Assembly: GCF_026210795.1 (NCBI RefSeq)
Contig: NC_089432.1
Coordinates: 4,216,001 to 4,280,000 of the forward strand
Direction: 5' to 3'
Source of the DNA: Rhizophagus irregularis
Taxonomy: Eukaryota
DNA length: 64,000 nt
In this document: piece by piece, positions 25,243-54,264 of the stretch
How the letters are laid out: each line of letters starts with the position of its first letter
Numbering within the stretch: position 1 is the first letter of the stretch
Program-made: the position numbers and the translations under genes
Notes under the pieces: model-generated
What the model was told of the DNA's origin: nothing
Seen by the model: the letters and a program-made list of their open reading frames with translations, nothing else
The model's database searches: none

Positions 25243-26781
25243 ATATAGGCATATATGGGGGTTCTGGGACAGAATCCCCATATATGCCGGTGATCCCTTA
25301 TAGTCTCCCAGTTGTTTTCCTGATATACAAAAAAATCTGTAATCTTATTGAACCCCAATCCGCTCTTCATTATCAGAAAACATATCAAAATCTGATATTG
25401 AATTCAAGCTTAAAATCATGCTGGGCTCAAATTCTGTTAACATATCTCTCTTACCCAAATTTTTTGTTTTCAAGATAAAGGAGAATACCATCTTTGTTAA
25501 CGCGCTGGCCTTTTTTTAATCCCAAATAATATAACGAAAAAAGTATGCCATATTGCTTGCCCCTCAGGAGAACCCTGAACACCGAGGACTGAAGTGTCCG
25601 AGCATGTTCGGGGTTCGACCTGTCAAGCCTAATTTACATACCTTATTTTTATGTTATCCTAGAATTAATTCTAGAGCTGATTCATTAATGTAAACAAATC
25701 CAGGATAAGTCTAACCTCGTAGAGGTTAGATTTATCCTGTCCAGGTATCCAAATTCTTGATTAAAAAAGTATTGAGCATATTCTAGTATACCATTAATTT
25801 CTTGATATGCTGAAAACCATTCTAAAGACGATTCATTTTCACATACATAAGGACAAAAAAAGTCTAACCTATAAGTCTAACCTCAAAGTCTAACCTCAAG
25901 AAGTAATCAAATTAGTGAATCAAAAGCGTATTAACCAAGTTTTAGTATACCATTATTTTCTCGATATACAGGAAACAATTCCGAAGCCATTTCCATGTCA
26001 CAAAGCTAGGGTAAAAAAATATCCTCCCAATAGCATACAATATATAGGTAGCAAGAAAGAATAAGTATGAGCTGGCAAAGCCCTTTAGGGCGACGCCAGT
26101 GAATACGCATTCGACAGGAGGAACGATATAGCAGGAACATGAGCCAGCCCTTTAGGGCGAATGGGCAAATGTGGATGCTATATCGTTCCGACCATATCTA
26201 CCATATTTTAATGTATGCTAAATATATGAGGCAAATAGATCTCATTATTTCTGGCTCTAGCTCATAAACATATTAAAGACTCACCTTTAGGGCAGGCGGA
26301 ACATGTAAACAAGATATGTTCATGACTAAGTCTAACCTCTAAGTGTAAAAAAAAATATCCTCCCAATAGCATACAATATATAGGTAGCAAGAGAGAATAA
26401 GTATGAGCTGGCAAAGCCCTTCAGGGCGATGCCAGTGAATACGCATTCAACAGGAGGAACGATATAGCAGGAACATAAGCCAGCCCTTTAGGGTGAATGG
26501 GCGAATGTGGATGCTATATCGTTCTGACCATATCTACCATATTTTAATATATGCTATAAATAAGGCAAATAAGAATGCCAAGTCTAACCTCTAAGTCTAA
26601 CCTCTAAATCTCACATCTAAGTCTCACCTTTAGGGCAGGCAGAGCATTGTACACAAGATATGTTCACCATTAAGTCTCACCTCTGCAATGCGCATTCGGC
26701 AAGTCTAACCTCTTCACTATATTGATCGAACATCTGGGCCGTATCCCGAAGCATATTCACATGCCGGATCTGATATTTGCT
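25243..26781 (+). repeat. Left terminal inverted repeat
   Basis: Reverse complement of 52726-54264, same length, roughly 15 substitutions by eye. Contains an internal ~200-bp direct duplication and repeated AAGTCTAACCTC motifs. Confidence 0.95.
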
Positions 26782-26991
26782 AGCCCCTTCGTTCAAAGAA
26801 CTTCAGGGTGGGTAATTTCAAACCAGAATATACTAACTGATTTCGAAATCTCTCCTGCAGACCTTGGACAAAGGAGGCCATAAATTCGAAAATATATAAA
26901 AGTAATTAAACATTATGGGGTAATAGGATTAAATATTTTAAATTGAGAAAAAGTTTACACATATATTAGAGGTTAGACTTAACATAATATC

Positions 26992-29985
26992 ATAGTATGA
27001 AAAGATAAAAAGAATCATATTTGTGAATGTTGTGGCAAAACTCTTGCTACACCACAAAAGCTTCGTCAGCATTATTCAAGTACAAAAAATCAATGTAGTT
27101 TACCTTCTGAGAATAATATTAACCAAAGAAGGGTAAACACTCCTAAGGTAACTAGACCTATTCGACCAAAGTCACCTAGACCTTGTTCACCAAGCCCTGT
27201 CCCAGTTCCAGTAGTCCATACTAAAGGAAAGGATTGAAGAAAGGAGAAGGTAACCCCTACTCCAGTTCCCGAGCCAGAACCAGAAAAGGAGTTACCCAAA
27301 TCCAAAACTGTAATCACATCTTCCAAACCTGGTGAGGTTAAGCGACAAGATGCTCACGATAGAAATGCAAGAAAGTCTGGTGAGCATTTGAGAACATGGG
27401 GTGCAAGATTACGCCGAAGATGGACTGAAATAACTGGAGAAGAATGTGATTTGCCAAAAACTTTAAAAGAATGTCAGCGCCTACATAATGACCTATTACA
27501 AGCAGATGATGAGTCTTTTGAAAATGTTCATGCTTCAACTCCTTCAACCAAGCCAGAACAACATCCCACCCAACAGAACGAAGACCAAAGGGCAGAGGAT
27601 CCTGAAGCAGGACCAGGCCCAACAACCCAAGCTAATAGAAAAAAGGAAAGGAAGATAGTAATCCCTATTACGGCAGTAGACATCCACTTTGAAGAATGTC
27701 CTGTTGGTAGGGATCTAGAAAGACCACATCAAAACCAATCTTTAATGAGCAAATGGGTGGGTATAGTTCCTCATCCAGAAGAAAATCCAGCATATGCTTT
27801 TAATGTTCCAGTATTTGGTCATGAATATGCAGAGGCTCCATATATACCCCAACTTATATCAGCATCTCGACCAAAAATAAAAGAAGTTTATCAAACAGAG
27901 CTCCATAGAAAAGATCAAATAAAATCAGCTATAGTAGTAAAATGCTTGTATAAACTTACTAAAAAAGATAAAGAAGAAAGAGAAGATAATGATGATTTTG
28001 CTAATAGAGTCTATAAAGTAAAACATCATAGAGGTAAGATGCGACCAATTCTTTTAGAGGGGGATATAGATGAGCATATAACTCTAACTGTTAGGGAAAT
28101 AGATAAACAGGTTGAAGAAGCATTACTAAAGGGATCTGGATATACTCTCGAACGAATTGAAGAAATATCTATTGAGGCATATACCCTCCGTCGAGGCACA
28201 GGAGGATCTTACAAACCAACCCCCAAAAAATTAGCCAATACTAAGTCTACCATCAATCCAGATAATCAAGGTCTCATTGATCCAGAAACGAATAGGCCTT
28301 CTGAAAAATGTCTCCAAGGGGCTTTAGGTTGCTATTTCGCACATCAGGATAAGCCTGATACAGACCATCTTGAACGAATCTTCTGAGCTAAAAATCTAAA
28401 ACTATATCTAGAAAAGGTCAAGCTAGATGGTATTCCAATGCCTACTCCAATCTGTTCACGTATATTCGATAAGATTGAGGAGATGAATCCAGATATCTCC
28501 ATCAGTGTCTGGGAATGGAAAGAAGAAACAGCTACACCAAAGCCTGTAATTGCTAGTAAAAACTTTAAAAGACAACATAAAATTTGACTATTAGCTCTTA
28601 CAGATATAACCAAATCTGAGGATGACAAGTACGGGCAAAAGAACCACTTTCTCTGGATCAAGAATTCCAGTAGATTAATATATGGGGATAGTGCGCATAA
28701 AGAAAAGAAGCATCTATGTGATGGATGCACCCAAAGCTGGCCCTCCGAAAAAGCTCTAGAACATCATATAGAATGGTGTCCCGGAATACACGAAAATGCA
28801 CCCCAGAGAGTCACAATGTCAGTGAAAGGGGTAAATGATTTCGAGGAGTTCAAGAACTATGGCCGAATGATCAATGCCCCATGTGTTATTATAGCCGATT
28901 TCGAGGCCGACAATAAGAAGTGTGATGAAGCATATGGTGGAAGTATGCGAAAACTTGCCGAACAGAAGGCTAATAGTTTCTGCTACCTAGTCCACTGGAT
29001 CGATACCGGAGATGTATGGGGTCCGTTCCTATACAGGGGAGAAAATGCCACACAGGAATTTGTTCGAAGAATCGATCAGGAACTGGTCAAAATCAATGAG
29101 GTCCTAGTTATCAAGCATGAGCGAATTGAGACTAAGGAAGACAAGAAAAGATTTGCAGATGCTATTAGCTGTTGGATTTGCAAAGGTAAGTTCGATATAG
29201 ATACAGATGAAATCGAGCGCTTAGAAGTCAAAATAACCTATCTTAAAGAAAAACTAAAAAGCTTTAAAAAAGTGACAGCAGAATATAATGGTATCCAAAC
29301 AACCATAGAAAAAGCAACCAAGGCAATTGCCAGCGAAAAAGCTAAGGCTAATAAGGTCTGGGATCACTGCCATATCACAGGTAAGTTTCGTGGATCAGCC
29401 CATAGGGATTGCAATCTCAAACTCCAGATACAGGATTGGAAAACACCGATCCCAGTCATCTTTCATAACTTCCGAGGCTATGACTCTCACTTGGTCTGTG
29501 AATCTGTTGGACGTTCAGCTAATGCACAACATATCAGGGTTATAGCTGAAACATTTGAGCGGTATAAGTCTATGAAGGTGGGCCAGCTCAAGTATATTGA
29601 TAGCATGCAGTTCATGAATAGTAGCTTGGCCAGTCTTACAAAAAATTTGGGTGATAACCACCCGATAACAAGCCAATATTTCAAAAAATTAGGTTATACA
29701 GAGGAACAATTAGCATTAGTATATCGCAAAGGAGTTAATCCCTATGACTACATCGATTCGCATGATAGATTTAAGGAGACAGAACTTCCTCCTATTCATG
29801 AATTTCATAGTACTCTTAAAGGTAAGATCTCACAAGATGACTACCAACACGCCCAAAAAGTATGGAAGGAATTTAGATGTCAAAATTTAGGTGAGTACCA
29901 TGATCTCTATCTTAAGACCGACGTACTTAGTCTAGCAGATGTCTGGACAGAGTTTCGAAAAATGTCTATGGAATATTATGAACTT
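26992..29985 (+). pseudogene. polB: Protein-primed family B DNA polymerase, 5' part (N-terminal zinc finger/Pro-rich region, 3'-5' exonuclease with endonuclease VII-like insertion)
   Basis: One frame from 27001. Motifs: CECCGK..KLRQH..C, HFLWIKNSSRL, VIIADFEA (Exo I), CWIC..DHCHITGKFRGSAHRDCNL, FHNFRGYDSHL (Exo II), RKGVNPYDY, YLKTDVLSL (Exo III). In-frame TGA at 26998, 27235, 28384 and 28585; cut by the LTR element. Confidence 0.9.
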
Positions 29986-30620
29986 TGTAATAACTGAAAA
30001 TATAATAAATAAATGACGCAGTAAATCCTGTGGCGCAGTAGGTCACATGATATGGTTACACAAGAAGAAATGGTTGGGAATACAAAAGTCACGTGACAAG
30101 TCACATGGCGCAGTAAATGACGGATAAACATTTAGCCGATGGATAAATAATTAGCCAATAAAATTATATTTATAGTTTAGTTTAGTGTAACAAGAAAGTC
30201 ATATGATAATACATCTTTTATTTCTTATTATTCTTAGAATTTTGATAGAGAGAAAGAGTAGTAGATAGTAGAAATGATTTTCTTAAAATGTATAAATACA
30301 AGTGGATTTCGATAGGAAATTCGGTAGTTCAATTTTTTTTTTTTTTTGAAAAATAAAAATTATTTCGTCGTTTAATAAAAACTAACACATTCTTTTAACC
30401 TTTTTCTTACGATGAAAAAGAGGTGTCATTTTTAATGACCTAAAAATAATTTATAAATTTGGAGAAATTATCGCAAAATTAATTTTGAGTAAGAAATTAT
30501 GTTTTGTAATTTTTGTAACTAATCTTTATTTTAAAACCAAGCATAGAAACTATACGAACTCAACACGTCGGTGGCAACATACGATATTTTATTTTAATAT
30601 CCTATGGGCGGCGTGTCACA
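29986..30620 (+). repeat. 5' LTR
   Basis: TGTAATAAC...GTGTCACA; no difference from 38932-39566 seen by eye. Confidence 0.95.
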
Positions 30621-30730
30621 TTTTTAGTGCATGCTCACGAGAAAATAAAAGATTGTTGTCTTCATACAAAATCTAAATAAGAAATAAAAGAAAAGTATAT
30701 GAGAAAATGAAAGAAAAAATTTGTAAAATT

Positions 30731-30860
30731 GATAAGAAAGGAAAGATGATATGAGAAATCATCAAAGAAATATAAGAAAGGAAAGATGATATGAGAAATC
30801 ATCAAAGAAATATAAGAAAGGAAGGATGATATGTAAAATCATCAAAGAAATGATAAGATA
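30731..30860. repeat. 40-bp tandem repeat (~3 copies) in the retrotransposon 5' UTR
   Basis: ATAAGAAAGGAAAGATGATATGAGAAATCATCAAAGAAAT repeated. Confidence 0.8.
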
Positions 30861-32082
30861 AGGAAGACTTATCTGAAATATGAGAAAAATGTTACTATAT
30901 ATGAAAAAGGATATAGTAAAAGTAATATTATGAAAAAGGAATATTACAGAATATATGAGAAATGAAATATACGATATATTGAAAAAGTATATATCAAAAA
31001 GATGAATGAAATATTCAAGATAATAATGAAAAGATTTAAAAATTGAATGAAAATAAAAATTTATAATGAGAATGAATTTTGTGAATAATAAGAAGTTAAT
31101 AAATGATTGAAAAATTTGAAAAGTATTATAAGAAAAGAAGAGTTATTAGTGACAAACCCGTAAACTACTATACTTCTATAAAGAAGGTAAAGGCAAGCCC
31201 GGTACAGGTTACTAAATGAAAAAGGAAATTAAACGATATTGTAAATATAAGAAATATAGAAATGTTATTATTTAATATACGAAAAATAATTTTATTACAA
31301 TAAAAGAATGATATGAAAGATTGTAAAAGATAATAATGAATAATATGAAATAAAATGATATAATAAAAGAAATTGTGTAAGCATGTTGCGTAAACGAAAT
31401 AAAATGTTGTACAAATCACGTGAATAATGTAAATCACGTGATGAAGCGCAGTAAAAGAAATATATAGCTGCCCCTTGGGCAGAGGTGACTGATTAATAAA
31501 AATATAAATGAATAAGAATATAATAGAAGAAATAGTTGTGTCACCAGGGGCGTTATGTCAACAGAAATTTTAGTACGTTGATCGCTTAAAAATCCGTGGC
31601 TATCCAATTATAATAAGAAAATATTAATGAATTATAAAATGAAATGCGAGAAATAAAATAATATGAAATAGATTTGAAATAAATATTTTGGAAGTTAATA
31701 TAAGAAAAAGATTAAAAGTCATTAAAAGTTTAATGTTGTGTATGGAACTGGGAGGACCCAGTATAAATAAGCCTTTGTTGGTGATCATATTAGTCTGACA
31801 CTGGGTGGCCCCAGTTATAAATAATCCCTAGCCTTGATCACAGTTTATTTGCGCAAGATATAGAAAGTTTATAAATAAAATCGCGATTATAGATTATAAA
31901 TTATATTATAGAATGTATAAAGAAATTATAGAATCAAAGCTGGAACTTTGAAAATATTAAAATTTAGATTGTATTTTAAAAGAAGTAAAAGATAAATAGT
32001 AATTTAAATGATGATAAAAATTTTATAAAATATAAATAAAAGTGAAATTATGAAATGTTTAAATAAATAAAAAAAAAAAAAA

Positions 32083-35000
32083 ATGTCTGATATATATGAT
32101 GAGTTAGAAGAGATTAAGAATAGACATGAAATAGAGAAACATAATGAACTAAGAAAGGAATATCAAATAGACCCTTCATGTCTAAAATGTTATAGTACTG
32201 ATGAAATAGAGATAGGAGATTGGTTTAAAAGATTTTGGAAGATTTTTCAAAAAGTAATATTAGAAGCGATGAGTTATAACAGAAATACATATATGAAATT
32301 AATGGAGTACATAGTACTAACAAAAAAGGATGAGGAAGAAAGTTATCCATCTAGTAGAAAGAAAAGAAATAAAGAATTTGAGAAAATAAGAAAAGAAGGA
32401 GAAAAACTGTTAGATATAGTTGTAAGGTCAATTAGGTATAGGAATAAACCAGATTATAGAAAAATAGGAATTATATCGGTAATAAAAGTAATAGGTGAAC
32501 ATTACATATTGAGTGAAGATAATGAGTATATATTAGACGACCGAACAGAAGAAAATTTATTAGGAAATAAGGAATTGTTAACATATAGATATATTATAGA
32601 AGATAACGAATTAGATATAAGATTTGCAAAATTTGAAGAATGGTTAGAAAAAATAGAATCAGTAACTATTAAGAATAAAGGATATGGTACTATGAAAAAT
32701 TTTAAAGAAATATTACATTTAGAAGAAAATATTGCAGAAGAAGAAAATAGAGAGAAAATCAAGAAGTTTCAGAAAAGTATAACATATCAATGGTGGGATG
32801 GAAATAAATATCCAAAACCATGGATGAATGATGATTTAACAGATAAGATAATAGAGAAAATTGTAGAAACAAAAGGTTTTGTTGAAGAACAAAGTGACGT
32901 AGGAGAACTAGAAAGTTCAGATGATTTAGGAGAATCAAGTTCAAATGAAGGAGATGAACATATAGAAAGAATATACAGAAATTATTGGTTAGAGAATGGT
33001 TATGAAATTGATATTGAAGAAATAAGACGAATAATAAATTTTAAAGTAGAATATGAAATAATAAAAACTAAAGAATTTATGAGTTTTTACAAAACTATTG
33101 AAGAATTAGATGATAAAGGAATAGAAGAAGAATTAAGAATATGGCATTATATGTATACAATAGAATGTCCAACGTGTAATAAAATAATATTAAAGAAAGA
33201 AGCAATAGAAGCGGTAGAATACAACAAAGAATTTATAGAAAGAATATGTAAAAGTTGTTATGAAAAAGAATTAGAAAATGTAAAAGATGAGAATGAATTA
33301 GATGATGAAACAGAAATAGAGAAAAGACTAGAACAGTTAAAAAATCTAATCAAAGTTTTAGAAATTGAAGTTTCCGATGGAGAATTATTAAGATTAATGA
33401 GTATGGGATATAGAAATGTTGATATATTAAGTGCAGACTTTATAAGAAAATTTCAAGAATATAAAAATGAATCAGAAAAAGAAATAAAGAGAATATTAGA
33501 CGAATATTTAAAGAAATTTGAAATTGAAGAAAGTGAAGAAGAAGTTGAAGAAGAAAATGATGATACAGATAATTCGGAAAAGATTGGAGAAATATTAGAT
33601 CCAGAAGAATATGAGATTCGGGAAGAAAATACTGAAGATTTTAATAAAAATGAATTTGAGAATGAAAATGAAAATGTTATAAATACAGGAGGTTTTGGTT
33701 TGAATCAAAATTCAGATTCGAATAATTCATTGAATATTAAAGATTCTGATAACGAAAGTGAAATATCTGATTATAATTTACAAGATTTATTTCAAGAAAA
33801 TATATTATTAAATATGGCAACAGAAGCACAAATAAGAAGAATAGTAGAAAATGTTACAGGACTCGCACCTAATGCATTAGATAATGCATTAGGAGCAGGA
33901 CAAACTTTATTAGATAGAATTCAAACTGCAGGAATGGGAGGAATAGTAGGTATGCCAACTTTTAGTGGAAAAGAAGATGAAGATGTTAACGATTGGATTA
34001 GACAATTTGAAGTAGCATTTACAGTAAGTGGAAGAACAGAAGGAAATGTTGGAGGAGGTGTATGTAGTCAAAATAAAGCAAATGTAGCAATAACATGTTT
34101 AAGAGGAACCGCATTACAATGGTATAATGAAGAAAAAGAAAGAGTAGCAGCTAATTTAGTAAACTGGTGTGATCATAACGATGATAGAAATTTGAAAAAC
34201 AAATTAATTAATAGATTTACTAGAGAAGATGTTAAAAATAGAAAAATGATGGAATTGACAAGAATTAAACAAGAAAAAAATGAAAGTGTTGAAGAGTATA
34301 CTAGAAGATTTAGATCAATATTAAGAATTGCAACTAGAGGCCAAGCATTATATGATATGTATCAAGTAAATTATTATATTCAAGGGTTAGAACCTACATT
34401 AGGGTACCAAGTTAGAAGAAGTAGTCCAACGAATTTAAATGATGCAATTAATACAGCAAGAAGAGAAGAAGAAGCTAAAAATGAATTGATAATGAAAACA
34501 ACAGGTATAAATATAGAACAAATAAGACAGGAAAAGAATATAGAAGAAATTTTAAAAGAAGAAACAAATAAAAAAGAAGAGAATGAAATATATAAGAAAA
34601 TGCAAAAACCAGTTAATGAAAAAGATATTGATGAATTAAGTAAAGCGTTAGAACAGTTCAGAGCAGAAAAAATAGCTATGGAAGAAACGTTAAATGAAAT
34701 AAAAAATCAACAAAGAAGAAATATAAATAGAAATACAAATACAAGAAATGCAAGGATCATGAGATGCTATGAATGCAATGAAGTAGGTCACATAAGACCA
34801 GAATGTCCACAATTAAGACAAAGAAATAATTATAGAACGCAAAATAATTTTAATAGGAATAATAATGAAAGAAGAAATAATAATAATAATAATAGAAATA
34901 TAAATTTAATGGATCACGAAAGATATTATGATAATAATAGATATAATGATAATGAATATTATAATAATCACGAAATATATAATTATGAAAAAGAAATATT

Positions 35001-35418
35001 TCCAACTTTAAGAAGTGGTAGAAAATATGGAAGAGATTTAGATAATGACTATAATGAAATGGAAATTGAAGATGTCCCAATACCACCAAAAAGAGAATAT
35101 GATATGAAAATGGATATTGATGGTGAAAGAAAAGGAGGATTTTCTAATAAAGAAGATAGAGATAAAGCATATCAATCAAGAAGAAGACATAACCGATGTG
35201 AAAGATGTGGAGTAACAGGTCATTTTATAAGAGAATGTCCAAACCCAGGAATGAAAAGAGGAAATAAAAATATTAGAGTACGAGTTAATGTACCACCAGA
35301 AAAATATGTAATGGATATGTATAATGAAAAAGCGAATATAACATATGGACAAATTTACAATGAAAATCCAAAATTTAGAAAAATAGCTAGAAATTATAAT
35401 GAAGATGATAATGCATGA
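32083..35418 (+). CDS. gag: Gag with a long acidic N-terminal extension and two CCHC zinc knuckles
   Basis: MPTFSGKEDEDVNDWIRQFE; MHR-like IKQEKNESVEEYTRRF; knuckles CYECNEVGHIRPEC and CERCGVTGHFIREC. Confidence 0.92.
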   Translation: MSDIYDELEEIKNRHEIEKHNELRKEYQIDPSCLKCYSTDEIEIGDWFKRFWKIFQKVILEAMSYNRNTYMKLMEYIVLTKKDEEESYPSSRKKRNKEFEKIRKEGEKLLDIVVRSIRYRNKPDYRKIGIISVIKVIGEHYILSEDNEYILDDRTEENLLGNKELLTYRYIIEDNELDIRFAKFEEWLEKIESVTIKNKGYGTMKNFKEILHLEENIAEEENREKIKKFQKSITYQWWDGNKYPKPWMNDDLTDKIIEKIVETKGFVEEQSDVGELESSDDLGESSSNEGDEHIERIYRNYWLENGYEIDIEEIRRIINFKVEYEIIKTKEFMSFYKTIEELDDKGIEEELRIWHYMYTIECPTCNKIILKKEAIEAVEYNKEFIERICKSCYEKELENVKDENELDDETEIEKRLEQLKNLIKVLEIEVSDGELLRLMSMGYRNVDILSADFIRKFQEYKNESEKEIKRILDEYLKKFEIEESEEEVEEENDDTDNSEKIGEILDPEEYEIREENTEDFNKNEFENENENVINTGGFGLNQNSDSNNSLNIKDSDNESEISDYNLQDLFQENILLNMATEAQIRRIVENVTGLAPNALDNALGAGQTLLDRIQTAGMGGIVGMPTFSGKEDEDVNDWIRQFEVAFTVSGRTEGNVGGGVCSQNKANVAITCLRGTALQWYNEEKERVAANLVNWCDHNDDRNLKNKLINRFTREDVKNRKMMELTRIKQEKNESVEEYTRRFRSILRIATRGQALYDMYQVNYYIQGLEPTLGYQVRRSSPTNLNDAINTARREEEAKNELIMKTTGINIEQIRQEKNIEEILKEETNKKEENEIYKKMQKPVNEKDIDELSKALEQFRAEKIAMEETLNEIKNQQRRNINRNTNTRNARIMRCYECNEVGHIRPECPQLRQRNNYRTQNNFNRNNNERRNNNNNNRNINLMDHERYYDNNRYNDNEYYNNHEIYNYEKEIFPTLRSGRKYGRDLDNDYNEMEIEDVPIPPKREYDMKMDIDGERKGGFSNKEDRDKAYQSRRRHNRCERCGVTGHFIRECPNPGMKRGNKNIRVRVNVPPEKYVMDMYNEKANITYGQIYNENPKFRKIARNYNEDDNA

Positions 35419-35985
35419 CTACACTCGGACCAACAAATAAAAAGTGCAGATAATAAAAGTGAAACTAGAGCAATGAGAAGTGAAGTTATAATAAAAGGAA
35501 AATTAGTATCAATAATAATAGATTCAGGAGCATCAGTTAGTTTAATATCAGATAGATTAAGAAAAGAATTAAATATTCCAATAATAGAAAAGAGTGATAT
35601 TAGATTTATAATGGCTAATGGAACAAGAGTTGCATCAAAAGGAAAAATAGAAATAACAATAGAAATAAATGAAAATACAAAAATGAAAATAATTATGGAC
35701 GTAATTGAATCAGTAGAAAAAGAATTAATATTAGGAAATGATGTGTTAAGAGAAAAGAAAGGAATAATAGATTATAATGAAAAGATATTAATATTAAGAG
35801 AAGATGGAAAAGATATTGAAATACCAATAGAATATGAAAATAATGACGAAAATATTAATGACGATAATGATAGTGATGATAGTGAAGATGATGATAGTGA
35901 AAATGAATATGAAGAAACAAGTGAACGAGAAATATATTTAATAAATAATGAAGAAAAAGGACATATTATAGAGGAAAACTACTAG
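35419..35985 (+). CDS. Retroviral-type aspartic protease (in frame with gag, after TGA-CTA)
   Basis: IIIDSGASVSLIS and LILGND motifs; the frame is open from the gag stop. Confidence 0.9.
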   Translation, partial: LHSDQQIKSADNKSETRAMRSEVIIKGKLVSIIIDSGASVSLISDRLRKELNIPIIEKSDIRFIMANGTRVASKGKIEITIEINENTKMKIIMDVIESVEKELILGNDVLREKKGIIDYNEKILILREDGKDIEIPIEYENNDENINDDNDSDDSEDDDSENEYEETSEREIYLINNEEKGHIIEENY

Positions 35986-37445: not shown

Positions 37446-37643
37446 GAAAGATAAAAGTTTAGAAAATAATAAATAGTAATGAATAACGAGATAAATAAAA
37501 TTAAAAAATGGTTGAAAGAATAGGATTAGAAATATATATATTTATAATTCATACAAATATAAATTATCATTGCATATTATTTGAAGATAAAGAAATAAAA
37601 TTTATTTTACCATTTGAAAACGAAATAGAAAATTTATTAACAA

Positions 37644-38867: not shown

Positions 38868-38931
38868 TAAGTTTGAGACCCGAATTCGATTCTTAATTTA
38901 TGGGACATAAATTTTTTAAGAGGAGGATAAA

Positions 38932-39566
38932 TGTAATAACTGAAAATATAATAAATAAATGACGCAGTAAATCCTGTGGCGCAGTAGGTCACATGATATG
39001 GTTACACAAGAAGAAATGGTTGGGAATACAAAAGTCACGTGACAAGTCACATGGCGCAGTAAATGACGGATAAACATTTAGCCGATGGATAAATAATTAG
39101 CCAATAAAATTATATTTATAGTTTAGTTTAGTGTAACAAGAAAGTCATATGATAATACATCTTTTATTTCTTATTATTCTTAGAATTTTGATAGAGAGAA
39201 AGAGTAGTAGATAGTAGAAATGATTTTCTTAAAATGTATAAATACAAGTGGATTTCGATAGGAAATTCGGTAGTTCAATTTTTTTTTTTTTTTGAAAAAT
39301 AAAAATTATTTCGTCGTTTAATAAAAACTAACACATTCTTTTAACCTTTTTCTTACGATGAAAAAGAGGTGTCATTTTTAATGACCTAAAAATAATTTAT
39401 AAATTTGGAGAAATTATCGCAAAATTAATTTTGAGTAAGAAATTATGTTTTGTAATTTTTGTAACTAATCTTTATTTTAAAACCAAGCATAGAAACTATA
39501 CGAACTCAACACGTCGGTGGCAACATACGATATTTTATTTTAATATCCTATGGGCGGCGTGTCACA
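38932..39566 (+). repeat. 3' LTR
   Basis: Copy of 29986-30620, preceded by a purine tract. Confidence 0.95.
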
Positions 39567-39570
39567 ACTT

Positions 39571-42305: not shown

Positions 42306-42334
42306 TAATATACAGTTATAAAAATATTACTAAA

Positions 42335-43715: not shown

Positions 43716-43964
43716 ATGTCTTCCAAATTCACTCAAGCTGACAAGATTAAAAAATATGAAACGGAAAGACTTATCAAGTATTTGCGGGAGGATTCCAAAT
43801 CAGAAGGCTTAGAACTTGACAATGACTTTTTTACAAAGCTTGAGGAGGAAAATATTACCGGTCATTTATTTCTCAAGTTAACCAGACAGGAATTTAGAGA
43901 ATTCGGAATGGGATTGAGACCAGCATTGGAGCTTGAGGACTACATTAAGAAGCTGTGTGAGTAA
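43716..43964 (+). CDS. Stand-alone SAM-like domain protein
   Basis: IKKYETERLIKYL...FFTKLEEENITGHLFLKLTRQEFREFGM..PALEL fits the SAM pattern. Confidence 0.7.
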   Translation: MSSKFTQADKIKKYETERLIKYLREDSKSEGLELDNDFFTKLEEENITGHLFLKLTRQEFREFGMGLRPALELEDYIKKLCE

Positions 43965-45789: not shown

Positions 45790-46572
45790 ATGCCAGGTGA
45801 TATGGTTAAGATCATATTAGATAAGATTTATAATAAAATTGTACCTAAACCTATCAATCTCCGCCCTGGGTATGATATGGAACATGTTTTTAACTATCGA
45901 CTTCAAACTGATAACTATCGATATGAAAAAGTGGTTGAAATAGAAAAACAATATGATTATTTATCTATTATTAGACCTCATGAAACTTCCCAGCAATGGG
46001 CTAATCGTGTAAGAGGTCCTCTGCAAGAACTACTTTCTAAGCGAGAATATAGTTTATATCATGTGTACTGCCTCTTCGCTTCCTTTGGGCAAGTAAAATC
46101 CACAACATACTATGTTAATGGTGATTTAAATAGTACCCCCTTTGAATATTGTAGACCTAATGTCCATAAAAGTCAGATGGCTATCTGCTTTAAATGCTGG
46201 AAATTGGTGAAGATTACCGAAGTAGAGCCTAGAAAGGAATATTATAGTGGCTGGGGGAGATGGGCCTATGAGGTTGAGTCCGAAGATTTGATGAAGAATC
46301 ATTGGAATTACTCTTGCTTCAAGGCTAATACTGCAACTATAACAAAAAATACTATGCTAAGTGCTTCAAATTTCGAGCCAGCTTATATTCCACCTTCCGG
46401 GCAAGAAATGATTTCACCAACTTCTTATCAATCATCGAATTGTAGAATTAATACAAGTGAAATATTTATCTCGTCTCTGTATGCTAAACAAAATAATTTA
46501 CTACCATCCATAAACCATCTTAATCAGCCAGTGTTAAAATTAGAAGATGGAACGGAAATCACAATTGTTTAG
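45790..46572 (+). CDS. Hypothetical element protein (260 aa)
   Basis: Intronless ORF with CFKC and HW..SC, a possible zinc site. Confidence 0.6.
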   Translation: MPGDMVKIILDKIYNKIVPKPINLRPGYDMEHVFNYRLQTDNYRYEKVVEIEKQYDYLSIIRPHETSQQWANRVRGPLQELLSKREYSLYHVYCLFASFGQVKSTTYYVNGDLNSTPFEYCRPNVHKSQMAICFKCWKLVKITEVEPRKEYYSGWGRWAYEVESEDLMKNHWNYSCFKANTATITKNTMLSASNFEPAYIPPSGQEMISPTSYQSSNCRINTSEIFISSLYAKQNNLLPSINHLNQPVLKLEDGTEITIV

Positions 46573-46776: not shown

Positions 46777-47630
46777 ATGGCCAGCCAACTACATTTCAAT
46801 GATCACTATAAGAGTTTGCTTGACCAATTACCCCCATCCATGAAAAAGGATGTATGGTTACGCCTTACAAACCGCAAAAATAAACCATTATCTGAGGAGC
46901 AGGTTAGGGGTATCCATCCAGACATTGAAGAGTTGCTTACTAGGGAGGTTAATAGATACCATAACAAAAAAAATCGCCAGAAGATTAAGATTGAATCCCA
47001 GAGGGATCCTCCACCTTATTTCGGCTAGATGGATTTGAGAAACAGTTAGAGGAACGTGAGCTTCATGTACAGCAACGGGAGAATAATATTAAGAAAACTA
47101 TTGAGGCCCAGGTTGCTGAGGAACGTAAACATCTAAAAGATGAATATGATGCTCTTAAGTCTCGTCTGGAGAGTGAATATAATAATTGTATGGTAGATAT
47201 GAAACAGAAAATATATTCATTCAAACATCAGCTAGAAGAGCAACAGAAATCCGGCTCAGATGACTTGGAGAGGCAATACAAATCTCGTATCTGTGCTTTG
47301 GATAAATCTAATGCTGTGAAAGATAAGGAGATTGGCAAGTTATCAGCATCCCTATCACGATCTAAAAATGAAATAAAGGATCTTAAACATGTCCTTTCTT
47401 CAGTTAAAAAAACTATCAAGACATTGGATGATATTATCTATTCTAAAGACCAAACAATTATTGCCTATTATGATGGAATCTGTTCTATCAATCCTGACTG
47501 TATAGATAATACTATAGAGCCAACTATCTTTTATGAAAAAGAAGCCAAAGTATTGTGGACTAGATGGCATGATGACGCTAAAGATGATCTAAACATCCGA
47601 AAAAAATATACTTTTCGAACTCGTGTCTAG
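46777..47630 (+). pseudogene. Coiled-coil hypothetical protein, frameshifted at ~46995
   Basis: MASQLHFNDHY...KIKIE continues in another frame as PEGSSTLFRLDGFEKQLEERE, which is in frame with ORF 47190-47630. Confidence 0.6.
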
Positions 47631-47866
47631 GCAAGGCTTAACCGAATGGGTACCATATTTTTTTCTAAATATGGGTTTGATAAACTTTGCATGGGCTTTA
47701 TATGAGAATTCTTGACTGCGCATGGGTCTGTCAAATTTTGCATGGGCTTTACATGGGATTTCTCAACTGCGCATGGATTTTTTCGTAAAAAATGTTGCCT
47801 AAGATTAGCAGGATATCTAAATTCCTTTCCACAATACATACAAGTTCGATCAGCTAGTTTTTTTTT
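47627..47866 (-). CDS. C2HC-type zinc-finger ORF, -1 frame extension of the protease
   Basis: KKLADRTCMYCGKEFRYPANLRQHFLRKNPC begins at A_AAA_AAC just before the protease stop; the first Cys lies upstream of the ATG. Confidence 0.65.
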   Translation of the reverse strand, partial: KKKLADRTCMYCGKEFRYPANLRQHFLRKNPCAVEKSHVKPMQNLTDPCAVKNSHIKPMQSLSNPYLEKNMVPIRLSLA

Positions 47867-48947
47867 ATAGGTTCTGGATCCTTCCCTACAGTAAAAACAT
47901 TACGCTGGGATTTATGAACTGATAAGGGGATAGTAATAGTCTTCCCATTTCGGCTTGCCTTAAATTCCCCCTTCACTAAGGGTTCCCATCCTGCACGATA
48001 CTGCCATTGTGTTCCAAGAATAAATAGGGATAGTTCTTTTCCACTATCATCATATTCTGTAGGGACGACAGAGAATTCATCCGGAATGGTGTCTCTATTT
48101 TCTCCATCCTCAATAGTTACAGGAACACTATCAACTGTACCAAGGGAATGGGACTTACTCGCAACTCCATTAAGCCTATGAATCTTTTTCTTATCTATTT
48201 TTAGACCCAAATGTTTTGCAACATTTTCTGAGACTATTGACGAGTCTGATCCACTATCAATCATTGCATAGGGTATAGTCACGCTCCCCACCTTACAGGA
48301 GATGGTTGCAACGTCGTCAGCATCCTTTATTTGTAAAAAATTTATCTCTAAGGGCTTGGGCCAATATATTTGGCTATTTTTTTTTTGAGCCGATGCATAA
48401 GCCTTAATAGCATGTTCTAGCCGGATGTTCTCTGGTAAAACATGACTAGTGGATGTAGTATTAATTTCCTTAATTTTAGTCGAATCAGCCATAACTATAT
48501 CTTCTTTTAGACTGGGGGCATTCAGGATAGATTCATTATTATCTGGAACTTGTAAAAGAGGCTTCTGCTCACTATTTACTGCCTGCAATAGAGGAAATAA
48601 GATGTCTTCGAATTTACTTGCAACGTTCCCCATGCTAATTCCCTTCTTTTAACTGTATCATTTGGCATAACAATATTCAAGCAATGGTCTTTTAATTTGG
48701 GGAATATCATATTAATAACTTTCGAAATTTCTATAAGAATCTCTCTAGGACAATAAGGGACTAATGATGATATTGAAGATTTTAAGGCTATTTGATACAT
48801 TAGGTCTGTAGCCATGATTATATTGCCTGATGCTTTGCTAGCATGAGATTTGGAAGTAGGGGACTTCTTGGTTGCTCCTTCTTTCGATTTGATGCTCTTT
48901 TTCATAGGTATTCCACTTCGCACCACTTTTTTTTTGTAGCATAACAA
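47854..48947 (-). CDS. Linker + retropepsin-like aspartic protease (frame break at ~48633)
   Basis: AMIDSGSDSSIVSENVAKHLGL and FILGTQW; upstream ORF 48576-48947 overlaps in the adjacent frame. Confidence 0.8.
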
Positions 48948-50953
48948 TTTCGAGGTTCGTCATCATTTTCATCAACATATTCAACATATTCATCATCATC
49001 TTCGATTTCCTCTTCTTTGGGATCCTCTTCCTCTTCCACTATGTATTCTTCGGAGTCTTCAGGATCTTCTACCTCATCTTGGTATACATAGTTAACTTTT
49101 TTAGTCCGCTTGCCTTTGGGGCAATTAACCTTTGTATGACCAGCCTTTCCACATGCTGAGCAATGCCGAGTTTGCTTTGCAGATGCTTTTGGCACTACCT
49201 TTCGAATAACTTTCTTTGTAGCATAAGCACTTCTGGATGTAAAAGGGCTTTTTCTAACATGGGCAGTTGTGCCTCCTAACCTCTTTTTAAGTTCTTCATA
49301 AATAAAATTTTCTAATGTAGCGTCATCTATTCCTATTCCTGTATAAGCTAAATCTCTTGCTAGCCGAATTTTAAAATCATCTTTTTGTGGTTGAGTAGTA
49401 AAGCTAACTGAGGTTGGTGCAGGAGCTTGTATTCTTTTGCCTGCACTTTCATGCCATATATTGCATAATTCTGTAAAAAATGCATTGACTGTAGGAGGAT
49501 TAGCAATTCTAACTCTCATTTCTAAATCGGAAGGCAATTGATTAAATAGATAAGGTAAGGCATCAGCATCTAGCATTGCTTGTACTAGCGGTTTGATTCG
49601 TTTTTCATAACTATCTGGAGTATCTGTCTCTAAAAACTTTTCATTAACAAGAGCAAATATAGCACTTCGGTTAGTCCCTACCATAACTTCTCTATATCTT
49701 TCACGCAACCAGTTTAGGAAGAGAGGTTCAGTAACAATAGCTGGATTACCTCCGGCATATGGATCATTAGCAGGAACAGGTGCAAATCTACCTGTCATCT
49801 TATTTATCATAACTTGACATCTTACACCAGCATTAAAACCAACAACAGCTAAGGGACGTGCCGTCTCATTTATATTTCTAAGCCTTTGATAATATACATC
49901 TGGTGGTTCCTGCCTATCATAACTGGGTAATTGTGCAAGTAAAGGTGATAATGTATGCATAACATCTTGAATAGTAGCCATGTTTCCGAGTGGGTTGTTT
50001 TGTAAATTCAAAATAATTTGTCGTGAATTTAATTCCCTAGCCTTCCATTTTTGGTATCTATTAAATACCCATGCCCGATTGAATTCTGCCAAGTCGGCCT
50101 TAGCTTTGCGCCTCCTAGCTAATATTTGGAGAACTGCCTTCTCTTGTACTAATATATTAATCTGATTCTGCTTTCTAAAGGCCATTCTTTGACCATTAGT
50201 TTGCCTTTCCTGAGCAATTTGATACCAACGACGACGTTCATTTGCCTCATTATTATATGCTATAGTTAATAATTGAGCTCTTCGAAGACATTCATTTCTA
50301 ACATTTGCCATATCATTAATAAAGTTATTTATCTGCCCATTAGCATTATTGAGCAAATTATGAGCAGTATTAAGCTGGCCTTGTAAGTTAATAGCATCTT
50401 GAGCATGCCTTTGCATATGTCTACGAACAGTTGTTAATGAGATCCATATCCCATTCAGTGTATTTCTTGGATCAAATGATGTATCTCCATTAATATATCT
50501 TTCAATCCGATCTAGAGCCGTACCAACATTCCTTAAGATATCTGGCAGTGCCATATTTTCTTGTTCTTCTTCTTCAGAAGGTTTATTACTGTTATTTTGA
50601 AAATGTGATATCTTGAGAATTTGGCTTTTGAGCTTTTCTACTGTATCTTCTAGCAGAATGATTCAGTTATCTTGAGCGACTAATGCCTCTTCCTTTAGCT
50701 CTAAATGATCCTGACATTTTTTGAGATTATATAAGGTGGAGTAGTATTCTGCTTTTAATCTATCTATCTCATTCTCTCGTGAGATAAGATTTTTTTCAAG
50801 ATATTTGATATATAGCTCACATCGCTCTAGATCATTTGTGAGCTTGCGAATCTTCTCCTTATTTCTAATGGTAATAGTTTCCTCTTTAGTCAACTTTATT
50901 CGCAATTCTAAATTGCTGTCTAGTAAATCGATATATGCCTGCTCAACTCCCAT
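48902..50953 (-). CDS. Gag-like protein (coiled-coil N-terminus, CA-like core, CCHC knuckle, acidic tail); one in-frame TGA at 50663-50665
   Basis: ORFs 50663-50953 and 48902-50554 are in frame, separated by 36 open codons. CSACGKAGHTKVNC knuckle; core aligns by eye with the neighbouring Gypsy Gag CA. Confidence 0.75.
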
Positions 50954-52073
50954 TGATTCCTATAATCCACATAAATACCTCTAGAAGAGACGAACTTGTA
51001 TCTACTACTTTGCAAAAAATTTACTACCAGCCTATCGGCTATCATAGAAATGCTAAAAAATTGCTTGAAGCTTCTCTAAAAGCTGGGTATGATTTTTCTC
51101 TAAATGAAATGTATGATTGGCTCGAAAGACAGGCTGTACACCAGATACATAAGCCTCGTCCCAGATATATTCCTCGAGCAAGTTTTTGCTCTATTACCAC
51201 CCCTAATAAAGTTCACCAGGCAGATGTTCTCTACATGCCTTATGATAAAGTAGGACGAGTCACCTATCTTTTTTGTCTTAATGTGGTTGACGTGGCTTCG
51301 AGATTTAAAGCTTCTGTCCCCATTGGTGCATATAGTGTTAAGGATAGAGAGGGCATCTTAACTTCTAAAACTATTGCTAGGGCTATTGAAAAAATCTATG
51401 ATGATCCTGAGTGTCCTCTAGTTTGGCCGGAAACATTTTTAACAGATAGGGGGCCAGAGTTCAGGGGTGATTGTGAGAAATTAATGAGAGAGCATGGTGT
51501 GAAAATTCAGAAGGCTAAATCTAAACGTACTATGGGTATTGTCGAGAGATATAATCGAACTTTGATTGATAAATTATTTCCTTCCCAGGACGCATCTGAT
51601 CTTTTGACTTTACACTTAAATAAGATATCCAGGGTTTGGTTAAAGAATTTGGCTATAGTTGTTGAATATATTAACAATTCTAATACAGATCAGCTTGGTA
51701 TTTCTCCTGTTGATGCAATAGAGAAAGAAGAGGTCTTTGCTAAGCCTTCTTATCCTCGGGATGGTTCTATAGGCTTTGATGAAGAGAAGCTTTCTGGTGA
51801 TATTCTTGTTCGATATTTACTATATCCTAGTGATTGGAGGGTGGGAGACGCCGTGCTGGTGATTTGAATTGGTCACCTCATATTTATCATATCTGTCAAT
51901 CTATGGTACAAAAAAATCAGCCGGTCTTATACTGGCTGGAAGAAGTCCCTTTTGGGCTAATTGATAATGATGATTATATTCTCAAACGTCCTGAAAGATC
52001 TTTTGTTCAAGAAGAATTGATGATTATTCCTTATGATACAGAATTGCCTCCCCAGTGGGTGCTCACGAATTAA
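50935..52073 (+). pseudogene. Polinton-type rve (DDE) integrase with a 1-bp frameshift at ~51834
   Basis: LQKIYY.P.GY, HQADVLYM (D), FLTDRGPEF (D), IVERYNRTL (E); the C-terminal NWSPHIYHI is in the shifted frame. Confidence 0.88.
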
Positions 52074-52443
52074 GGAAGTCTTCTGCTTCTTCATCAATTT
52101 TGGCTTCTATAACGAAATAATCCTTAGCTAATCTATAGTATAGCTTGTATAGTTCCATAATGGAATTAAGAATCTTTGGATCTTTTCCGTAATATGATTT
52201 GTAGTCATCCATAATTTGATGATATTTATCTTTATTAGGGAATATGGTTTGGGCTAGCTTTAGTACATATTCTTCAGGGTCTTCTGCTTGGCGTAATTTC
52301 TTAACTCTCTCTTTATAATTTTGCATGAATTTGCCATCCTTTGGCTTTCTATAATAGATTCCTGCCTTGACTACATTTATTAATGCCTGCTTTACTTCCT
52401 GGTATGTGGGCTTGGTTTTGGGTAATTGGATTTGTGTACTCAT
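52063..52443 (-). CDS. Hypothetical element protein (126 aa)
   Basis: Intronless helical ORF overlapping the integrase stop. Confidence 0.6.
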   Translation of the reverse strand: MSTQIQLPKTKPTYQEVKQALINVVKAGIYYRKPKDGKFMQNYKERVKKLRQAEDPEEYVLKLAQTIFPNKDKYHQIMDDYKSYYGKDPKILNSIMELYKLYYRLAKDYFVIEAKIDEEAEDFLNS

Positions 52444-52515
52444 TATGTAATTAGTATATGTATTACTATATTGTGTAAAGATTTATTCAATTAAAATTAT
52501 TTATACAACTATAAA

Positions 52516-52830
52516 ATGGGTGAAGGTGCTAAAGCAAAAGCAAAATTTATTTGTTATTATCTTCTTAATACTGGTGAAATTTGTGGCAGGCGTAGTACTA
52601 GACCTGAAGGTTGTCGATCACACTTTAAAGCTAAGTTGCGCCAGTCGTGCTCTGCTTGTGGTAGACCTACAAAGATAAATAAACCTACAGGGATTGATAA
52701 TGGCCTATGTAGCTATTGCAATAAGAGCAAATATCAGATCCGGCATGTGAATATGCTTCGGGATAAGGCCCAGATGTTCGATCAATATAGTGAAGAGGTT
52801 AGACTTGCCGAATGCGCATTGCAGAGGTGA
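52516..52830 (+). CDS. Small Cys/His zinc-binding protein whose 3' end lies in the right TIR
   Basis: C-x8-C-x9-C-x2-H followed by CSAC...CSYC. Confidence 0.6.
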   Translation: MGEGAKAKAKFICYYLLNTGEICGRRSTRPEGCRSHFKAKLRQSCSACGRPTKINKPTGIDNGLCSYCNKSKYQIRHVNMLRDKAQMFDQYSEEVRLAECALQR

Positions 52831-54264
52831 GACTTAATGGTGAACATATCTTGTGTACAATGCTCTGCCTGCCCTAAAGGTGAGACTTAGATGTGAGATT
52901 TAGAGGTTAGACTTAGAGGTTAGACTTGGCATTCTTATTTGCCTTATTTATAGCATATATTAAAATATGGTAGATATGGTCAGAACGATATAGCATCCAC
53001 ATTCGTCCATTCACCCTAAAGGGCTGGCTTATGTTCCTGCTATATCGTTCCTCCTGTTGAATGCGTATTCACTGGTGTCGCCCTGAAGGGCTTTGCCAGC
53101 TAATACTTATTCTCTCTTGCTACCTATATATTGTATGCTATTGGGAGGATATTTTTTTTTACACTTAGAGGTTAGACTTAGTCGTGAACATATCTTGTTT
53201 ACATGTTCCGCCTGCCCTAAAGGTGAGTCTTTAATATGTTTATGAGCTAGAGCCAGAAATAATGAGATCTATTTGGCTCATATATTTAGCATACATTAAA
53301 ATATGGTAGATATGGTCGGAACGATATAGCATCCACATTCGCCCATTCACCCTAAAGGGCTGGCTCATGTTCCTGCTATATCGTTCCTCCTGTCGAATGC
53401 GTATTCACTGGCGTCACCCTAAAGGGCTTTGCCAGCTCATACTTATTCTTTCTTGCTACCTATATATTGTATGCTATTGGGAGGATATTTTTTTACCCTA
53501 GCTTTGTGACATGGAAATGGCTTCGGAATTGTTTCCTGTATATCGAGAAAATAATGGTATACTAAAACTTGGTTAATACGCTTTTGATTCACTAATTTGA
53601 TTACTTCTTGAGGTTAGACTTTGAGGTTAGACTTATAGGTTAGACTTTTTTTGTCCTTATGTATGTGAAAATGAATCGTCTTTAGAATGGTTTTCAGCAT
53701 ATCAAGAAATTAATGGTATACTAGAATATGCTCAATACTTTTTTAATCAAGAATTTGGATACCTGAACAGGATAAATCTAACCTCTACGAGGTTAGACTT
53801 ATCTTGAATTTGTTTACATTAATGAATCAGCTCTAGAATTAATTCTAGGATAACATAAAAATAAGGTATGTAAATTAGGCTTGACAGGTCGAACCCCGAA
53901 CACGCTCGGACACTTCGGTCCTCGGTGTTCAGGGTTCTCCTGAGGGGCAAGCAATATGGCATACTTTTTTCGTTATATTATTTGGGATTAAAAAAAGGCC
54001 AGCGCGTTAACAAAGATGGTATTCTCCTTTATCTTGAAAACAAAAAATTTGGGTAAGAGAGATATGTTAACAGAATTTGAGCCCAGCATGATTTTAAGCT
54101 TGAATTCAATATCAGATTTTGATATGTTTTCTGATAATGAAGAGCGGATTGGGGTTCAATAAGATTACAGATTTTTTTGTATATCAGGAAAACAACTGGG
54201 AGACTATAAGGGATCACCGGCATATATGGGGATTCTGTCCCAGAACCCCCATATATGCCTATAT
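52726..54264 (-). repeat. Right terminal inverted repeat
   Basis: Reverse complement of 25243-26781; ends ...GCCTATAT followed by TSD TCATG. Confidence 0.95.

What the first reader, a model, noticed from the sequence alone, without database searches (positions are those of the whole stretch)
25243..54264. Polinton-like DNA element that seems to carry a retroviral Gag-protease module in place of the usual virion module
Seen: complete element (TIRs, TSD) with pPolB and rve integrase, and a minus-strand Gag-like/aspartic protease/zinc-finger block at 47627-50953. No ORF I can recognise as a DJR major capsid, penton, A32/FtsK ATPase (no Walker A seen) or adenain protease. No RT or LTR accompanies the Gag block, and it overlaps both neighbouring genes, so it looks integral rather than a nested retro-fragment. 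Known: canonical Polintons use DJR-MCP, ATPase and cysteine protease. Inference: a chimeric protein-primed DNA element that might package its genome in Gag-type particles. I cannot check whether this family is already described.
Basis: partly seen in the sequence, partly recalled or inferred. Interest (0 to 1): 0.93.

Follow-up and report, generated by a model that had tools for sequence, protein, structure and literature searches.

The report
Fungal Polinton with frameshifted retroviral capsid
A self-copying DNA jumping element of root-symbiotic fungi carries, instead of its relatives' usual virus coat, a conserved gene pair predicted to make a retrovirus-type capsid and protease, likely linked by ribosomal frameshifts and with no reverse transcriptase, so it likely moves its own DNA in a borrowed retrovirus-like shell; this copy is decayed and the gene set was probably drawn once in a 2021 figure.

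Summary
Observation largely confirmed. The element has 1,539-nt TIRs, a 5-bp TSD, pPolB, an rve integrase and a Gag-protease-C2H2 block. The Gag core is predicted to have the two-lobed retroviral/retrotransposon CA fold. The block is integral: INT lies head-to-head with Gag in 12 of 13 informative metagenome loci, three contigs carry pPolB+INT+Gag (one with uninterrupted frames), none of 44 loci has RT, and CA and protease are under purifying selection. An A-run at the Gag end (13 of 13 loci) and at the protease end (6 of 7) points to a gag(-1)pro(-1)ZnF double frameshift. Corrections: this copy is decayed, and a separate 9.6-kb Ty3/gypsy element with RT and LTRs sits inside pPolB. No jelly-roll capsid, adenain or ATPase was found here, but a diverged relative keeps an ATPase-like gene. 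Prior art: capsid-less Glomus Polintons (2014) and a Starrett 2021 figure legend naming Gag/retropepsin in a pPolB element. Particles and their cargo are untested. Verdict: new variant of a known kind; at least eight earlier scan reports cover other copies.

The parts
25238..25242 (+). left copy of 5-bp target-site duplication TCATG
25243..26781 (+). left terminal inverted repeat (1,539 nt), with a terminal hairpin at 25248-25288 and an internal 336-nt-spaced repeat
   Evidence: hairpin -18.8 kcal/mol, z -5.7, 0 of 200 shuffles
26997..29985 (+). pPolB, 5' part (N-terminal C2H2, EndoVII, exonuclease); 3 in-frame TGA stops, start codon one base out of frame
   Evidence: 59% to intact L011 pPolB
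29986..39566 (+). nested, unrelated Ty3/gypsy LTR retrotransposon (LTRs 29986-30620 and 38932-39566, identical; gag, PR, RT/RNase H, H2C2-INT; TSD ACTT); not part of the Polinton's own gene set
39567..41301 (+). pPolB, 3' part (polymerase motifs A-C); 1 in-frame TGA
   Evidence: 72% to L011
41703..42290 (-). F-box protein, variable cargo (also in L008)
43716..43964 (+). SAM-like small ORF inside a high-copy repeat (~43290-44100), likely host-derived cargo
   Evidence: weak, E 0.019; depth
44686..45150 (+). ML-domain (lipid-binding) protein with a hydrophobic N-terminus, cargo
45790..46572 (+). 260-aa hypothetical protein, Glomeromycota family, in a subset of elements; model is alpha/beta, not jelly-roll
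46777..47630 (+). coiled-coil protein, one ORF in L003/L008, split here
47627..47866 (-). C2H2 zinc-finger ORF in the -1 frame after the protease; no start codon ahead of the finger; A-run slip site at 47857-47866
47854..48935 (-). linker + retropepsin (D-S-G here, D-T-G in most relatives) in the -1 frame of Gag; A-run slip site 48926-48935; one frameshift near 48630 in this copy
48902..50953 (-). Gag-like protein, 683 aa: N-terminal coiled coil, two-lobed CA (49981-49424), CX2CX4HX4C knuckle, acidic tail; one TGA at codon 97
50935..52073 (+). rve integrase without H2C2 zinc domain, DDE intact, C-terminal frameshift in this copy
52063..52443 (-). 126-aa hypothetical protein, tail-to-tail with INT, conserved in L004 and L013
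52516..52830 (+). Cys/His-rich small ORF running into the right TIR
52726..54264 (-). right terminal inverted repeat
54265..54269 (+). right copy of TSD TCATG

Best explanation
This is a decayed copy of a Glomeromycota Polinton lineage in which a Gag-protease cassette, predicted to fold as a retrotransposon/retroviral capsid, stands where relatives have jelly-roll capsid genes, and active copies likely copy their DNA with the protein-primed polymerase, enclose it in a protease-matured Gag shell and reinsert it with the integrase. Shown: the anatomy, the conserved INT-Gag-Pro-ZnF order with pPolB nearby, absence of RT, purifying selection, conserved A-run sites with the next gene in the -1 frame. 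Predicted: the CA fold. Inferred: -1 frameshifting gives much Gag, less Gag-Pro and little Gag-Pro-ZnF, as in retroviruses with two frameshifts (recalled); the knuckle and perhaps the C2H2 finger select the cargo; the shell co-assembles on the nucleic acid, which would explain why many lineages lost the packaging ATPase; the shell carries the element between nuclei of the coenocytic mycelium or between fusing hyphae. Untested: particles, DNA versus RNA cargo.
For: CA model pLDDT 87.5; the top 34 of 48,161 PDB representatives are all retroviral/retrotransposon CA folds (PEG10 CTD Z 10.9, rmsd 2.4, 82 aligned; Copia capsid Z 9.7, rmsd 8.0, 154 aligned), Foldseek rows are HIV CA (E 6e-3) and Gag/caulimovirid coats; Atlas best hits Retrotrans_gag 0.93-0.95. 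INT head-to-head with Gag in 12 of 13 loci with >=300 nt upstream, 10 distinct clusters; protease downstream in 9 of 11; pPolB on the same contig in L009, L011, L013; L011 has uninterrupted pPolB (1,413 codons), Gag, Pro and ZnF frames in 8.5 kb; pPolB and Gag-Pro accession numbers 3-6 apart on contigs of equal length in a R. irregularis assembly, three cases. No RT in 44 of 44 loci or in 144 new Gag relatives. pN<pS in 78 of 78 CA pairs and 15 of 15 protease pairs, catalytic Asp kept. A-AAA-AA run in the last 13 codons of 13 of 13 Gag ends and 6 of 7 Pro ends versus 7 of 58 other ORFs; -1 frame open for >=100 codons or to the contig end in 10 of 13.
Against: No particle, transcript or protein evidence. 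Gag shells normally assemble on RNA in the cytoplasm, Polintons are thought to replicate in the nucleus (recalled). This copy (19.4 kb net) is twice the compact form, large for a Ty3-type shell. In 3 of 13 loci (L014, L021, L031) the -1 frame is closed, and no conserved stimulatory structure was found behind the slip site. Pfam gave no Retrotrans_gag hit for any of 34 members and the PDB sequence search none; the fold call rests on a model. A diverged lineage keeps an ATPase-like gene (L021), which fits pumping into a preformed shell rather than co-assembly. INT and CA trees are poorly resolved and disagree (L001 with L019 vs with L009), so modules have been swapped.
Confidence: 0.5

Rival explanations
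1. Gag-Pro builds shells, but they carry the element's RNA or its INT/pPolB proteins (Arc/PEG10-like delivery or a replication compartment), while the DNA moves only inside the nucleus as a capsid-less self-synthesising transposon.
For: CCHC knuckle and CA fold are RNA-packaging parts; best fold matches include PEG10, Arc, PNMA2; ATPase absent in this lineage; Krupovic 2014 treats MCP-less Polintons as the transposon state.
Against: No RT, LTR or primer site to use packaged RNA; Gag stands in place of the missing virion module in compact copies; an ATPase-like gene persists beside INT and Gag in L021.
Confidence: 0.28
2. The cassette is long-kept cargo acting as a restriction factor against LTR retrotransposons or as a benefit to the host, and forms no shell for the element.
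For: Endogenised CA restriction factors exist and match the fold (Drt2, Z 8.8); the element carries other host-like cargo (F-box, ML, SAM); gypsy elements do attack it (nested copy).
Against: Cargo genes vary between copies while Gag-Pro-ZnF with INT is fixed; an active-site protease and two slip sites are kept, more than a CA decoy needs.
Confidence: 0.13
3. The elements are non-autonomous for virions and borrow an undetected jelly-roll capsid from a helper Polinton-like virus; Gag is an accessory core or fibre-like protein.
For: ATPase in L021 and P_Gi1.2; long coiled coil on Gag; remote retroviral-capsid likeness has been reported for accessory 'Cah' proteins of a few adintoviruses.
Against: No MCP in three published Glomus Polintons; no room for one between INT and pPolB in L009 or L011; the whole Gag-NC-PR layout is present.
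Confidence: 0.06
4. The block is a remnant of a retrotransposon that jumped into this copy.
For: A gypsy element did insert in this same copy; 3 short Gag fragments lack INT or protease neighbours (L028, L043, L044).
Against: Same order in 10 distinct lineages down to about 32% Gag identity, no RT/LTR, same GC and CpG depletion as pPolB and INT (0.37-0.40, o/e about 0.5) unlike the nested gypsy (0.25, 0.81).
Confidence: 0.02

Closest known systems
Polinton-1_GI / P_Gi1.1 and P_Gi1.2 of Glomus (Rhizophagus) intraradices (PMC4028283 Table S1 rows)
   Same: Same host group, 11-12 kb Polintons scored as lacking MCP, penton and cysteine protease; ATPase absent in P_Gi1.1/Polinton-1_GI, present in P_Gi1.2, matching the two states seen here (window vs L021).
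   Different: The rows and passages I read do not mention Gag or retropepsin; sequences not compared, so identity of family is inferred; this copy is 19.4 kb with cargo and a nested gypsy.
Starrett et al. 2021 Fig. 5 element (PMC8502044, section 3.4 read) and NCBI taxon 2707321 'Rhizophagus glomeromycete fungus MELD virus'
   Same: [quoted passage not shown]
   Different: The figure is not held, so which genome bears the label is inferred; the section's text does not discuss it: no synteny, selection, frameshift or fold analysis.
Animal Polintons/Mavericks (adintoviruses)
   Same: TIRs, TSD, pPolB with EndoVII (about 40% to animal Polinton-like pPolBs), rve INT.
   Different: No jelly-roll MCP, penton or adenain found; 5-bp TSD and AT-start versus 6-bp and AG (recalled).
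Ty3/gypsy (Metaviridae), retroviruses, caulimovirids
   Same: CA fold, CCHC knuckle, retropepsin, likely -1 frameshifting; caulimovirids show that a Gag-type coat can hold dsDNA (recalled; fold rows).
   Different: No RT/RNase H, no LTRs; the frame after the protease holds a short C2H2 ORF where pol would be; INT is a separate, opposite-strand gene 20% identical to the nested gypsy INT.
Bidnaviridae
   Same: pPolB replicon that replaced the jelly-roll double capsid by an unrelated capsid (PMC11161782 passage).
   Different: Parvovirus-type capsid, ssDNA, demonstrated virions, no integrase.

Membership tests
Polinton/Maverick (Polintoviricetes) | long TIRs and TSD | tested here: met
   (TSD 5 bp rather than the recalled 6 bp)
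Polinton/Maverick (Polintoviricetes) | protein-primed PolB | tested here: met
   TP and vOTU domains not modelled
Polinton/Maverick (Polintoviricetes) | rve integrase as separate gene | tested here: met
   Polinton-type C-terminus is recalled, no Polinton INT was in the tree
Polinton/Maverick (Polintoviricetes) | double jelly-roll MCP and penton | tested here: inconclusive
   no Pfam hit in ORFs or six frames; largest hypothetical models as alpha/beta, best Z 3.3; other small ORFs not folded; no positive control; compact L011/L009 leave no room between pPolB and INT
Polinton/Maverick (Polintoviricetes) | A32/FtsK packaging ATPase | tested here: not met
   no Walker A in the net element, no tblastn match to the L021 ATPase-like ORF; present in relative L021
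Polinton/Maverick (Polintoviricetes) | adenain-like cysteine maturation protease | tested here: inconclusive
   no Pfam hit; a retropepsin is present instead
Ty3/gypsy or retroviral element (the 47.6-51 kb block) | two-lobed CA fold | tested here: met
   predicted model
Ty3/gypsy or retroviral element (the 47.6-51 kb block) | CCHC knuckle and retropepsin | tested here: met
Ty3/gypsy or retroviral element (the 47.6-51 kb block) | reverse transcriptase/RNase H after the protease | tested here: not met
   0 of 44 loci; only the nested gypsy RT in the window; 0 of 144 proteins
Ty3/gypsy or retroviral element (the 47.6-51 kb block) | flanking LTRs | tested here: not met
   no direct repeat around the block among the 20 largest families; it abuts coding genes on both sides
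Virus (any) | particles that hold the genome | not testable with these tools
   needs EM and particle sequencing
Rhizophagus MELD virus / Polinton-1_GI | sequence identity to the deposited elements | not testable with these tools
   records not held; only names and table rows seen

The most novel reading that the evidence does not exclude
A pPolB-replicated, integrating DNA virus lineage of mycorrhizal fungi that swapped its jelly-roll virion for a retroelement Gag shell, kept retroviral-style double -1 frameshifting with a zinc finger in place of pol, and packages linear DNA with no reverse-transcription step: a working chimera between the jelly-roll and reverse-transcribing virus worlds, with ATPase-keeping and ATPase-free stages both alive.
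Probability: 0.4. Interest if true: 0.9.

Novelty: new variant of a known kind. Interest (0 to 1): 0.62.

Why it matters
Gag-type shells are known with reverse transcription or as domesticated RNA carriers; a DNA-polymerase replicon using one would be a capsid swap across two virus realms, like bidnaviruses but with a retroelement donor. It would explain why Glomus Polintons were scored capsid-less yet are among the recently expanded elements of R. irregularis (PMC8647823 passages), and would give a route for DNA and cargo genes (ML, F-box) to move between nuclei of these fungi. Naturally intact relatives (L011) make the test direct.

Tried and rejected
No whole genome held, so copies in this genome were not counted. 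IMG/VR scans with Gag, its alignment and pPolB gave no locus. Pfam and PDB sequence searches did not recognise the CA. The 260-aa ORF gave no Atlas hit and no fold match above Z 3.3 at pLDDT 65: not a jelly roll by secondary structure, otherwise open. Stop-restart (ATGA overlap at the Gag stop) was considered for protease expression: the ATG is in the window, L001/L008, L002, L003 but not L005, L011, L013, L015, L040, while the A-run is in all, so frameshifting is preferred; poly-A is also indel-prone, a caveat. No RNA holder is listed; two runs guessed as RNA cover the ML gene and pieces of gag/pro, not used as evidence. An empty-site allele could not be tested (ends 29 kb apart); in run X5 two contigs leave the TIR at 25243, at least one into a flank unlike this site's, a weak sign of another insertion. 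INT and CA trees are too unresolved for co-evolution or donor claims. Literature searches found no paper analysing the Gag cassette; the Starrett supplement is held cut and returned nothing even for 'capsid', so its Table S1 and the figure may say more; subscription papers and Repbase were not searchable.

Full report
Ends and size. The window holds inverted repeats of 1,539 nt at 25243-26781 and 52726-54264 with 15 mismatches, flanked on both sides by TCATG. Contigs from three public runs start exactly at 25243. The first 46 nt contain a strong hairpin. Homologues of the genes come from Rhizophagus, Glomus, Diversispora, Paraglomus, Entrophospora, Cetraspora, Scutellospora and Gigaspora, so the host is very likely a Glomeromycota fungus.

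A 9,581-nt Ty3/gypsy element with identical 635-nt LTRs, a 4-bp TSD and its own gag, protease, RT/RNase H and H2C2-integrase lies inside pPolB at 29986-39566; its GC is 0.25 against 0.37-0.40 for the core genes. Its Gag matches the block's Gag only at the knuckle and its protease at 28%, so it is not the source. The net element is 19,437 bp. It is decayed: four TGA stops in pPolB, one in Gag, frameshifts in protease and INT. CpG o/e is about 0.5 in the core genes and above 1 in the flanks, which fits methylation-driven decay (inference).

The Gag-like protein. The 683-codon frame has a coiled coil, a 186-aa core, a CX2CX4HX4C knuckle and an acidic tail. Pfam did not recognise the core in any of 34 members and a PDB profile search found nothing. 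An AlphaFold model from 23 sequences (pLDDT 87.5, pTM 0.57) is all-helical and two-lobed; against 48,161 representatives the first 34 rows are retroviral or retrotransposon capsid folds (PEG10 CTD Z 10.9, Copia Z 9.7, dArc Z 8.6-9.4, RSV CA Z 8.0); Foldseek lists HIV CA (E 6e-3, TM about 0.35) and Gag/caulimovirid coats; the ESM Atlas gives Retrotrans_gag clusters at 0.93-0.95. The family is discrete: 275 representatives at E<=0.001 (best 150 seen); of 144 new ones 11 carry the protease, 2 carry pPolB pieces, none RT.

Is the block integral? A metagenome scan gave 44 loci in 23 DNA clusters. Of 13 with at least 300 nt before the Gag start, 12 (10 clusters) have the integrase head-to-head; the exception is a short fragment. 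Of 11 with at least 500 nt after Gag, 9 have the protease; the two exceptions are truncated Gag pieces. L009, L011 and L013 carry pPolB, INT and Gag on one contig, with pPolB on either side. L011 has uninterrupted frames for pPolB (1,413 codons), Gag (697), Pro (316) and ZnF (101) in 8.5 kb. In a public R. irregularis assembly pPolB and Gag-Pro proteins have accession numbers 3 to 6 apart on contigs of the same length in three cases. No locus matches RT. pN<pS in 78 of 78 CA pairs (13 sequences) and 15 of 15 protease pairs (6 sequences); the catalytic Asp is kept. The genes between pPolB and ZnF in this copy (F-box, SAM-like, ML, 260-aa ORF, coiled coil) are variable: absent in L011, partly present in L003, L008, L013.

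Expression. Gag ends just after A-AAA-AAA-AAG, and the linker-protease frame is -1; the protease ends at A-AAA-AAA-AAC and the C2H2 frame is again -1. The A-run lies in the last 13 codons of 13 of 13 Gag ends and 6 of 7 protease ends, against 7 of 58 other ORFs (the 13 fall into 10 clusters). The -1 frame is open for 100 codons or to the contig end in 10 of 13 and closed in L014, L021, L031. An overlapping ATG exists in some lineages only. A double -1 frameshift, as in some retroviruses (recalled), with a zinc finger where pol would be, is the likely reading; it is untested.

Missing virion genes. No capsid, penton, ATPase or adenain family was hit in 25 ORFs or in six-frame scans of 41200-47700 and 51800-54264 (no positive control). 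The largest hypothetical models as alpha/beta without a fold match; smaller ones were not folded. No Walker A lies in the net element. A diverged relative, L021 (Gag 32%), has an ORF with Walker A and B-like motifs next to INT (FtsK E 0.06) that has no match in the window. I looked for it after earlier scan notes mentioned an ATPase.

Mechanism. Most likely (0.5) active copies replicate by protein priming, are enclosed in a protease-matured Gag shell and integrate by INT. Rivals: shells carrying RNA or proteins (0.28), restriction-type cargo (0.13), helper jelly-roll capsid (0.06), nested fragment (0.02). That the cassette is integral and selected is far surer (about 0.95) than what it packages.

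Prior art. PMC4028283 (passages and three supplement rows) lists P_Gi1.1/Polinton-1_GI and P_Gi1.2 without MCP, penton or protease. PMC8502044 (section 3.4 whole, other passages) has a Fig. 5 legend naming retroviral Matrix/Capsid/NC/Pro among elements with adintovirus-like PolB, with no discussion in that section; the figure is not held and the supplement is cut; its preprint has the same legend (passages). NCBI holds a taxon 'Rhizophagus glomeromycete fungus MELD virus'; that it is the labelled genome is inferred. Passages of PMC11161782, PMC11071296, PMC8647823 and PMC5751038 give context and no analysis of this cassette. Nine searches found none. Seventeen findings of this scan hold the words Polinton and Gag, eight seen, on other copies in the same genome; they are unchecked notes and not counted as support.

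Verdict. Real, integral, and strange, but a variant of a catalogued element whose gene set was probably drawn before. New here: the conserved double slip site, selection on CA and protease, an intact natural relative, and the nested gypsy in this copy. Interest 0.62.

Noticed in passing
window:29986-39566: Very young Ty3/gypsy element (LTRs identical over 635 nt) with an unusually long 1,115-codon gag frame bearing a ~580-aa acidic N-terminal extension; gag and protease are in one frame separated by a single stop, RT and INT in other frames.
   Followed up: partly
window:44686-45150: ML-domain gene inside the element; in two runs guessed to be RNA its contigs are far deeper than neighbouring pieces, a weak hint that this cargo gene is expressed.
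   Followed up: partly
window:25248-25288 and mirror at 54219-54259: 19-pair hairpin at each terminus; candidate replication origin or packaging signal; conservation not testable, no TIR match in the loci.
   Followed up: partly
L021:3-458 (-) and 538-1731 (-): Diverged Gag lineage with an ATPase-like ORF beside INT; its INT C-terminus runs into a zinc-finger/nuclease-like tail (DUF4379 weak hit).
   Followed up: partly
P0100, P0101 (Rhizophagus clarus): Proteins that share the 60-aa pre-CA segment of this Gag (77-78%); P0100 continues into a canonical Retrotrans_gag domain; possible link to the donor retrotransposon family or chimeric gene models.
   Followed up: no
window:43290-44100: High-copy repeat of about 800 nt with a SAM-like small ORF inside the cargo region.
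   Followed up: no
window:55066-57783: Array of about 110-120-nt AT-rich repeats with a conserved GC core just right of the element.
   Followed up: no
window:1247-1636 and 15566-16269: Two arrays of a 20/21-nt pyrimidine-rich repeat 14 kb apart.
   Followed up: no
window:59859-63084: Degenerate inverted repeats (80-95%) around about 2 kb with Sel1-like 108-nt periodic repeats; possibly another old TIR element.
   Followed up: no
window:25110-25242 and 54300-54335: The insertion site is itself a repeat; a contig of run X7 leaves at 25178 into sequence resembling the right flank, like a paralogous empty site.
   Followed up: partly
L013:5881-6138: Small ORF between protease and pPolB with a weak Crinkler N-terminal (ubiquitin-like) hit, another kind of cargo.
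   Followed up: no
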